Source: the human T2T-CHM13v2.0 reference genome, Homo sapiens. From it: a DNA stretch of 64,000 nucleotides. Below the pieces are notes generated by a model. It saw only the letters and a program-made list of their open reading frames with translations, had not been told where the DNA came from and did no database searches. The position numbers and the translations under genes were made by a program. Location of the stretch: assembly GCF_009914755.1 (NCBI RefSeq), contig NC_060933.1; one strand, written 5' to 3'. This document shows, one piece after another, positions 1,421 through 1,880 of this stretch (within the stretch, counting starts at the first letter, position 1; each line of letters opens with the position of its first letter).

Positions 1421-1880
1421 GGCCGGGCACGGTGGCTCACACCTGTAATCCCAGCACTCTGGGAGGCCAAGGTGGGTGGATCACTTGAGATCAGGAGTTC
1501 AAGACCTGCCTAGCCAATATGGTGAAACCCCATCTCTAAAAATTAACCAGGTGTGGTGGCATGAGCCTGTAGTCCCAGGGCAGGGCTAGGGCAGGCACAT
1601 GGACGGGGTGCTCGGCGGCCACACCTACTGCACACTGCTGCAGCTCACCAGGATGTACCCCGGCCTGCAGGTGTACACCTTCACCGAGCGCATGATGGCC
1701 TACTGTGACCAGATCTTCCAGGACGAGACAGGCAAGAACCGGTGGCGGGAGGCTGAAGCATGAGAATCACTTGAATCCGGCAGGTGGAGGTTGCAGTGAG
1801 CTGAGATCGCACTACTGCACTCCAGCCTGGGTGACAAAGCTAGACTCTCTCTCTCTCAAACAAACAAACAAAAAAAAACA
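1421..1880 (+). mobile_element. Alu interrupted by the exon-derived insertion
   Basis: Alu consensus runs to ...TAGTCCCAG (1578) and resumes at CGGGAGGCTGA (1746). Confidence 0.92.
1583..1744 (+). pseudogene. Inverted duplicated fragment of ST6GALNAC4 exon 4 (reverse complement of 39-200) embedded in an Alu
   Basis: 154/162 identical to the reverse complement of 39-200 with no indels; includes the donor GTG. Confidence 0.97.

What the first reader, a model, noticed from the sequence alone, without database searches (positions are those of the whole stretch)
1583..1744. Intronic inverted copy of ST6GALNAC4 exon 4 predicts a 162-bp cis-antisense RNA duplex over coding sequence and the 5' splice site
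Seen: 1583-1744 is the reverse complement of 39-200, i.e. the last 159 nt of exon 4 plus GTG of its donor. It is 154/162 identical with no indels and has a perfect run of about 50 bp. In the minus-strand pre-mRNA it lies in intron 3, is transcribed before exon 4, and is antisense to it, with a loop of about 1.4 kb containing the exon 4 acceptor. Three of the 8 differences become G-U wobbles. Established: long intramolecular duplexes are ADAR substrates (editing complementary sequences), and pairing over a 5' splice site can block U1 snRNP binding. Inference: this may be a lineage-specific built-in regulator that promotes exon 4 skipping (413 nt, frameshifting), cryptic donor use or A-to-I recoding of a sialyltransferase exon. 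Unlike Alu-Alu pairs, it targets unique coding sequence.
Basis: partly seen in the sequence, partly recalled or inferred. Interest (0 to 1): 0.85.

Follow-up and report, generated by a model that had tools for sequence, protein, structure and literature searches.

The report
Inverted exon-4 fragment inside intronic Alu
A 162-base piece of a sialyltransferase exon was copied backwards into a nearby intronic Alu in a primate ancestor, giving the unspliced RNA a very strong predicted hairpin over that exon's splice donor, but nothing seen here shows that the cell uses it.

Summary
Window 1583-1744 is the reverse complement of 39-200 (154/162, no indels). These are the only two copies in the T2T genome.

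It is a templated insertion. 167 nt (1579-1745) replace 5 nt (CTACT) in the middle of one Alu in intron 3. There is no target-site duplication and no poly(A), and the two junctions carry 4 and 1 extra bases. The template was unspliced: the copy follows intron 4 (GTG), not exon 5.

The copy is decaying. It has an in-frame stop, and 7 of its 8 differences lie at CpG sites. With recalled rates the age is about 14-22 My (range 6.5-40).

In silico, the minus-strand pre-mRNA forms the duplex strongly: -362 kcal/mol, 157/162 pairs in the MFE fold, mean pair probability 0.965. It sits inside an Alu-Alu helix that brackets exon 4.

Function is not shown. All 4 RefSeq transcripts keep exon 4 and its donor. 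No listed paper links the gene to editing.

Most likely this is a near-neutral repair relic that is incidentally a probable ADAR substrate.

The parts
39..200 (-). Source (exon) arm: last 159 nt of ST6GALNAC4 exon 4 plus the first 3 nt (GTG) of intron 4. It encodes residues about 152-203.
   Evidence: annotation. Exon 4 translation matches Pfam Glyco_transf_29.
1583..1744 (+). Inverted copy. It reads as exon-4 sense on the + strand, so it is antisense within the minus-strand pre-mRNA. 154/162 identical to the source. In the exon frame it carries a TAG stop plus 3 missense and 4 silent differences.
   Evidence: It is the only stretch left unmasked between soft-masked 1349-1582 and 1744-2197.
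1579..1582 (+). Left-junction filler GGCA. Together with the Alu end it makes CCAGGGCAGG (1575-1584), a 10-nt repeat of the source's own CCAGGGCAGG (now CTAGGGCAGG at 1586-1595). Possible 4-nt microhomology (CCAG) plus a stutter.
   Evidence: Read. Interpretation is inferred.
1745..1745 (+). One extra G at the right junction, matching neither the source (A) nor the neighbouring Alus (T of CTACT).
1421..1578 (+). Host Alu, 5' part, ending ...GTAGTCCCAG.
   Evidence: Alignment with three neighbouring Alus; masked block.
1746..1878 (+). Host Alu, 3' part, resuming at CGGGAGG, with an A-rich tail. Colinear with the 5' part; only CTACT is missing.
201..1582 (-). 1382-nt loop of the predicted hairpin. 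It holds the rest of exon 4, its acceptor (454/455), Alu1 (1079-1376) and the host Alu 5' part.
1887..2183 (+). Alu3 of intron 3. In the 3.4-kb fold it pairs (188 + 89 bp) with the opposite-sense Alu block of intron 4 (window -740 to -304, outside the window), enclosing the exon/anti-exon helix.

Best explanation
This is a one-off templated insertion, a DNA repair or replication 'patch'. In a primate ancestor, a break inside an Alu of ST6GALNAC4 intron 3 was sealed with a 162-nt copy of sequence lying 1.4 kb away: the 3' end of exon 4 plus 3 nt of intron 4. The copy went in inverted orientation. The template was unspliced, either the DNA itself through a local template switch or synthesis-dependent repair, or nascent pre-mRNA. 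The copy has since decayed like unconstrained methylated DNA. As a by-product, the nascent minus-strand transcript contains two arms that can form a 162-bp, 95% paired duplex across the exon-4 donor, nested inside an Alu-Alu helix. Shown: the anatomy, the origin class, the decay pattern and the thermodynamic prediction. Inferred: the duplex forms in a fraction of nascent transcripts and is then deaminated by ADAR. The intron arm is the likeliest target, above all its three A.C mismatches at 1587, 1629 and 1706. I infer at most a small effect on exon 4 use. I take it to be a near-neutral relic, not a selected regulator.
For: The donor is intact and there are only two copies genome-wide. The host Alu halves are colinear with three neighbouring Alus, which read CCCAG-CTACT-C(A/G)GGAG. 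The host lacks CTACT and has 167 nt there instead. It has no target-site duplication and no poly(A), with 4 nt and 1 nt of filler at the junctions. These are the features given for class 2 templated sequence insertions (PMC5110952, passages). The copy continues into intron 4 (GTG) for 3 nt, whereas exon 5 begins GAGGCAG and matches for only 1 nt. 7 of 8 differences fall on the 26 CpG sites of the source (P = 9e-6). 5 of them are CpG-to-TpG/CpA changes in the copy. The copy has a TAG in the exon frame. The host Alu keeps only 5 CpG in 271 nt while the copy keeps 8 of 13, so the insert is younger than its host. Folding: duplex -362.2 kcal/mol against -61.4 and -52.2 for the arms alone. 157/162 in-register pairs appear in both the 1.8-kb and the 3.4-kb MFE folds. 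Mean pair probability is 0.965, and the gain over the halves folded apart is -229.6 kcal/mol. 4 of 4 RefSeq transcripts keep exon 4 and the donor at 42.
Against: No RNA data were available, so duplex formation, editing and splicing effects are untested. MFE folding ignores co-transcriptional kinetics, helicases and bound proteins. Before the exon arm is transcribed, the intron arm is already largely paired in the model: 118 of 162 nt. The right breakpoint lies only 3 nt past a splice donor, which a DNA-templated event does not explain; I treat it as coincidence. Neutrality is inferred from 8 substitutions only. A weak selected role cannot be excluded, because G.U and A.C changes barely weaken a 162-bp helix. 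Presence in other primates and in other human assemblies was not testable here. Age rests on substitution rates recalled from memory.
Confidence: 0.72

Rival explanations
1. One reading: the inverted copy is a selected, lineage-specific cis-regulator. The duplex hides the exon-4 donor from U1 and/or recruits ADAR, so exon 4 skipping, cryptic donor use, recoding or nuclear retention tunes ST6GALNAC4 output.
For: A very stable predicted duplex covers -159 to +3 of the donor. All 32 adenosines of the exon arm face U and all 32 would recode if read as G. Intronic dsRNA near an exon can change its splicing mode (PMC2533698, abstract). Long complementary regions are enriched in editing sites and generally obstruct splice sites (PMC8052449, passages).
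Against: No exon-4-skipping or alternative-donor transcript among the 4 RefSeq transcripts. The copy's substitutions look like CpG decay, with no sign of conservation. No paper listing ties the gene to editing or ADAR (passage is unrelated). Heavy recoding of 32 positions in a catalytic-domain exon would more likely be harmful than regulatory.
Confidence: 0.12
2. Sub-rival on the template: the patch was reverse-transcribed from nascent ST6GALNAC4 pre-mRNA at the broken locus, not copied from DNA by a template switch.
For: Class 2 templated insertions are reported to be RNA-derived (PMC5110952, passages). The break lay inside the same transcription unit, so its nascent RNA was nearby. The fragment ends 3 nt past the exon-intron border.
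Against: The fragment is unspliced at its only informative end, so nothing marks it as RNA-derived. A donor 1.4 kb away, copied in reverse complement, is also the signature of replication-based template switching (PMC5453318, passages). No poly(A).
Confidence: 0.3
3. L1-mediated retrocopy, that is, a fragment of a processed pseudogene.
For: It is exon sequence sitting in an intron.
Against: No target-site duplication, no poly(A), a 5-nt target deletion, and no splicing to exon 5. The known processed pseudogene ST6GALNAC4P1 on chr13 is a different, older object at 75-87% identity and lacks this segment.
Confidence: 0.02
4. An assembly artefact of T2T-CHM13.
For: Only one assembly could be read here.
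Against: An artefactual join would give identical copies. These differ at 8 sites with a CpG-decay spectrum, and the junctions lie cleanly inside one Alu with a 5-nt deletion.
Confidence: 0.01

Closest known systems
Class 2 templated sequence insertions (DSB 'patches'; Onozawa and Aplan, PMC5110952)
   Same: The donor stays intact. There is no target-site duplication and no poly(A). The junctions show a microdeletion, possible microhomology and untemplated bases (paper passages).
   Different: The donor is 1.4 kb away in the same gene, not a distant locus. The event is old (about 10-40 My by my estimate) and presumably fixed rather than a polymorphism. An RNA origin is not shown.
Template-switch mutations that create inverted repeats and RNA hairpins (Loytynoja and Goldman 2017, PMC5453318; PMC8794818 seen in listing only)
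   Same: [quoted passage not shown]
   Different: That model is explicitly short-range, covering clusters within tens of bp, and its authors do not use it for long-range switches. Here 162 nt were copied from 1.4 kb away, closer to the FoSTeS/MMBIR scale.
Exon / intronic editing-complementary-sequence duplexes (e.g. GluR-B Q/R and R/G sites; PMC1920255 abstract in listing)
   Same: An exon pairs with a complementary intronic stretch in the pre-mRNA, so any editing must precede splicing.
   Different: Here the complement is in the upstream intron, and the helix is 162 bp and near-perfect, so promiscuous rather than site-selective editing is expected (established ADAR behaviour, from my own knowledge). 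No editing has been observed and conservation is unknown.
Inverted intronic Alu pairs that form dsRNA and alter splicing of a nearby exon (Lev-Maor et al. 2008, PMC2533698)
   Same: A long intramolecular dsRNA in a pre-mRNA next to an exon. Such a pair is also present here, around the same exon.
   Different: One arm is unique coding sequence and includes the donor. Identity is 95%, against 75-86% for the 20 Alu pairs of this locus.
Stem-loops that sequester a 5' splice site (MAPT exon 10 stem; recalled, not checked in a paper here)
   Same: The donor lies in a helix that could compete with U1.
   Different: Those are short, local stems at the splice site. This helix is long-range with a 1.4-kb loop and leaves donor positions +4 to +6 unpaired.

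Membership tests
Class 2 templated sequence insertion / DSB patch | The inserted stretch is copied from another genomic place that stays intact. | tested here: met
   Both copies are present and are the only two in the genome.
Class 2 templated sequence insertion / DSB patch | No target-site duplication, no poly(A) tract, no L1-type insertion site. | tested here: met
   The host Alu is colinear across the insert. 5 nt are lost and none duplicated, and the insert ends in GTG+G.
Class 2 templated sequence insertion / DSB patch | End-joining marks: microdeletion, microhomology, untemplated bases. | tested here: met
   CTACT is deleted. GGCA and G are fillers. CCAG is shared by the Alu end and the source. 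The microhomology reading is inferred.
Class 2 templated sequence insertion / DSB patch | Derived from RNA. | tested here: inconclusive
   The copy follows the intron, not exon 5, which fits either DNA or unspliced RNA.
Templated sequence insertion polymorphism | Presence/absence polymorphism among humans. | not testable with these tools
   Only one human assembly is available. An age estimate of 6.5-40 My argues for fixation.
L1-mediated processed retrocopy | Spliced template, poly(A), target-site duplication. | tested here: not met
ADAR substrate with an intronic complementary sequence | A stable intramolecular duplex that includes the exon. | tested here: met
   In silico only: -362.2 kcal/mol, 157/162 pairs, mean pair probability 0.965.
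ADAR substrate with an intronic complementary sequence | Observed A-to-I changes in RNA. | not testable with these tools
   No reads or editing tables were available. The searches returned 4 and 9 papers, none about editing of this gene judging by title and abstract start. Supplements are closed.
Splicing-regulatory long-range RNA structure | Complementary arms that overlap or loop out a splice site. | tested here: met
   The arm covers -159 to +3 of the exon-4 donor, and the loop holds the acceptor.
Splicing-regulatory long-range RNA structure | The affected exon or site is alternatively used. | tested here: not met
   4 of 4 RefSeq transcripts contain 42-454 unchanged. This covers RefSeq only; rare isoforms are not excluded.
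Splicing-regulatory long-range RNA structure | Conservation or compensatory change of the pairing. | not testable with these tools
   No primate genomes were available. Within human, the 8 differences are one-sided CpG decay, with no compensatory pairs.

The most novel reading that the evidence does not exclude
A single repair accident gave catarrhine ST6GALNAC4 a ready-made 162-bp editing-complementary sequence against unique coding sequence. The duplex is used in vivo: it lowers productive mRNA output by masking the exon-4 donor or detaining intron 3, and/or it yields hyper-edited, recoded sialyltransferase transcripts, with ADAR and helicase levels setting the balance. That would be a dated, one-step birth of an exon-targeting ECS and a non-Alu endogenous long dsRNA.
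Probability: 0.12. Interest if true: 0.65.

Novelty: new member of a known kind. Interest (0 to 1): 0.38.

Why it matters
If the duplex forms in cells, it would be a rare natural case where one dated mutational event created a long, near-perfect dsRNA between an intron and unique coding sequence. That would be useful for three things. It would help show how editing-complementary sequences arise. It would give a clean non-Alu ADAR and dsRNA-sensor substrate. It would also be a natural test of how far a 1.4-kb-loop helix over a donor affects splicing. There is a practical point too. The two arms are 95% alike on opposite strands, so reads can be placed on the wrong arm. Exon reads misplaced on the intron arm would mimic A-to-G calls on the gene strand at exactly 1587, 1629 and 1706 in unstranded data (derived). 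If it is only a relic, it is an ordinary though tidy example of templated break repair inside an Alu.

Tried and rejected
Spliced-mRNA template: rejected. Exon 5 starts GAGGCAG, whereas the copy continues GTG like intron 4.

L1 retrocopy: rejected.

An older duplication flanked by two separate Alu fragments: rejected. The two halves are colinear parts of one Alu with only 5 nt missing.

Gene conversion between the arms, suggested by the 50-nt perfect run: no evidence. The run length is as expected for 8 random differences.

A known structured RNA in 1-5000: none at Rfam gathering scores.

Other genomic copies: none. ST6GALNAC4P1 does not cover the segment.

Literature. 'ST6GALNAC4' with 'RNA editing' gave 4 papers, with 'ADAR' 9, and with 'circRNA' 14 (10 listed). 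I saw listings only, plus one passage, and none concerned this exon's editing or structure. A six-term search on inverted exon duplication and dsRNA gave background papers only. The PCCR catalogue excludes exons and repeats by design (PMC8052449 passages), so it cannot hold this pair. The RIC-seq catalogue has a 'mixed' exon-intron class, but its main text does not name ST6GALNAC4 (PMC10691357 passages). Supplementary tables of these papers and of editing catalogues may hold the site.

Not done: orthologue protein search to polarise the two differences not settled by CpG or stop logic (1605, 1685), because I judged it not worth the shared cost. No sequence-changed folding control was made. Instead, the exon arm was constrained to stay single-stranded (MFE 288.2 kcal/mol less favourable). 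Alu subfamily was not assigned, since that would need a consensus from memory.

Full report
**Observation.** The inverted repeat exists as described. The repeat finder gives arms 39-200 and 1583-1744, 162 nt, 95% complementary, 1382 nt apart. A base-by-base register gives 154/162 with no indels. Homology ends after GTG at 1744. Arm 39-200 is the last 159 nt of ST6GALNAC4 exon 4 (42-454, minus strand) plus 3 nt of intron 4 (annotation). A search of the whole T2T genome with the 162 nt finds only the copy itself and exon 4. In the 64-kb window, 427 inverted BLAST pairs were found. Only 3 have both arms outside soft-masked repeats, and the other two are 29 and 35 nt. In the minus-strand RNA the eight differences are 3 G.U, 3 C.A, 1 C.C and 1 G.G (derived). 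The 50-nt perfect run is what eight random differences would give (P = 0.42).

**What it is.** The copy sits in the middle of a single Alu.
- RefSeq soft-masking covers 1349-1582 and 1744-2197 and leaves exactly the copy unmasked.
- I aligned 1421-1880 with two neighbouring intron-3 Alus and the intron-4 Alu. All three read CCCAG-CTACT-C(A/G)GGAG. The host reads CCCAG, then 167 nt (1579-1745), then CGGGAGG.
- So 5 nt of the Alu were lost and nothing was duplicated. There is no poly(A).
- The junctions carry GGCA on the left and one G on the right.
- On the left, the Alu end plus filler spells CCAGGGCAGG (1575-1584). This is a second copy of the source's own CCAGGGCAGG, which begins 11 nt further on. 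It looks like 4-nt microhomology (CCAG) with a stutter; this reading is inferred.
- The copy follows intron 4 for 3 nt, while exon 5 begins GAGGCAG and matches for 1 nt only. The template was therefore unspliced.

These are the marks given for class 2 templated sequence insertions: break repair with a copied patch, no target-site duplication or poly(A), and microdeletion, microhomology or untemplated bases at the junctions (PMC5110952, passages). A reverse-complement copy taken from 1.4 kb away is also what replication-based template switching produces. The published short-range model covers much smaller events and explicitly leaves long-range switches aside (PMC5453318, passages). I cannot tell a DNA template from nascent pre-mRNA. 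The extreme proximity of the donor favours a proximity-dependent mechanism in either case.

**Age and selection.**
- Seven of the eight differences lie on the 26 CpG positions of the source (hypergeometric P = 9e-6). Five are CpG-to-TpG/CpA changes in the copy.
- Read in the exon frame, the copy has Q153 changed to a stop, three missense differences and four silent ones.
- The source has 13 CpG and the copy 8. The host Alu retains only 5 CpG in 271 nt, so the insert is younger than its host.
- A two-class likelihood gives 14-21.5 My, with intervals spanning 6.5-39.5 My. It uses per-lineage rates recalled from memory: human-chimpanzee non-CpG and CpG divergence, and the same rates times 1.5.
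- Because it interrupts an Alu, it is in any case primate-specific (established knowledge about Alu).
- The pattern is that of unconstrained, methylated DNA. With eight events, weak constraint cannot be excluded.

**RNA prediction.**
- The two arms as RNA give -362.2 kcal/mol, against -61.4 and -52.2 kcal/mol for each arm alone.
- In the MFE fold of the 1800-nt pre-mRNA segment, 157 of 162 in-register pairs form.
- In the ensemble, the mean probability of these pairs is 0.965 and 153 of 162 exceed 0.9. The gain over the two halves folded apart is -229.6 kcal/mol. Forcing the exon arm single-stranded makes the MFE 288.2 kcal/mol less favourable.
- Before the exon arm exists, 118 of the 162 intron-arm bases are already paired elsewhere in the model, so formation needs rearrangement.
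- Intron 4 carries an opposite-sense Alu block (window -740 to -304). It matches all three intron-3 Alus at 75-86% identity. Of the 21 inverted pairs in the 10-kb locus, 20 are such Alu pairs.
- In a 3441-nt fold from exon 3 to that Alu, the exon/anti-exon helix persists (157/162). It is nested inside a 188 + 89 bp helix between Alu3 (1887-2183) and the intron-4 Alu.
- The helix covers donor positions -159 to +3.
- All 32 adenosines of the exon arm face U, and all 32 would change the amino acid if read as G.
- The three A.C mismatches have their A in the intron arm (1587, 1629, 1706). From general knowledge of ADAR, those are the likeliest edited positions.

**Evidence on function.**
- Nothing positive was found. 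All four RefSeq transcripts that cross the region (two mRNAs, two readthrough lncRNAs) contain 42-454 with the same donor. The only annotated variation is skipping of exon 2.
- Rfam finds nothing in 1-5000.
- Searches for ST6GALNAC4 with 'RNA editing', 'ADAR' and 'circRNA' returned 4, 9 and 14 papers. None concerned this exon, judging by titles, abstract starts and one passage.
- The catalogue of conserved complementary regions excludes exons and repeats, so it could not contain this pair.
- The RIC-seq-based catalogue includes exon-intron structures but does not name the gene in its main text.
- General findings make an effect possible but do not show one here. Inverted intronic Alus can shift an exon from constitutive to alternative (PMC2533698, abstract). 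Long complementary regions are enriched in editing sites.

**Verdict.** The object is a templated inverted insertion of exon-4 sequence into an intronic Alu, roughly 10-40 My old and decaying. It creates a very strong predicted exon/anti-exon duplex in the pre-mRNA. I consider ADAR editing of the intron arm in nascent RNA likely and a modest kinetic effect on exon 4 definition possible. I put a selected regulatory role at about 0.12. It is a new member of known kinds (templated insertion; long-range exon-intron duplex). Its interest lies mainly in being a clean, testable case.

Noticed in passing
window 1079-2183 and L005:6260-6696 (window -740 to -304): Exon 4 is flanked by opposite-sense Alus: three in intron 3 (+) and one block in intron 4 (-), 75-86% identical over up to 306 nt. 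This is the classic arrangement for exon looping-out or back-splicing. In the 3.4-kb fold, Alu3 pairs with the intron-4 Alu (188 + 89 bp). No circRNA from this gene was evident in the listing.
   Followed up: partly
window 1643-1651 (minus strand): The antisense arm reads CUG|GUGAGC in the pre-mRNA, which looks like a donor site. It lies about 165-180 nt downstream of the U-rich tract and AG dinucleotides of the antisense Alu right arm (1810-1878). A cryptic Alu-plus-anti-exon exon is conceivable. None is annotated, and the site was not scored.
   Followed up: no
window 37405-37495 and 39020-39110: A 91-nt direct repeat, 96% identical, with both copies outside soft-masked repeats, 1615 nt apart. 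It flanks EEIG1 exon 38205-38471. It may be another small templated duplication. Nearby Alu-like direct pairs at 36832-37114 / 39333-39618 have a different spacing (about 2502).
   Followed up: partly
window 1061-1077 and 1406-1422: A 17-nt direct repeat (AAGAAAACAACATCTGG) brackets Alu1 and its A-rich tail. This is probably Alu1's target-site duplication, which would mean Alu1 landed directly against the 5' end of the host Alu (read; D1 starts there).
   Followed up: no
L002 (chr13, ST6GALNAC4P1): The annotated pseudogene matches the parent mRNA in four blocks (mRNA 537-685, 924-1073, 1265-1554, 1561-1689) at 75-87% identity, across exon borders. It lacks mRNA 686-923, which includes the duplicated segment. 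It is older than the intronic copy and unrelated to it.
   Followed up: partly
window 42 (exon 4 donor): The same donor that lies in the predicted helix is also the one used by readthrough lncRNAs NR_174624/NR_174625. These splice from exon 4 directly to a ST6GALNAC6 exon about 16 kb downstream, skipping ST6GALNAC4 exons 5-6.
   Followed up: no
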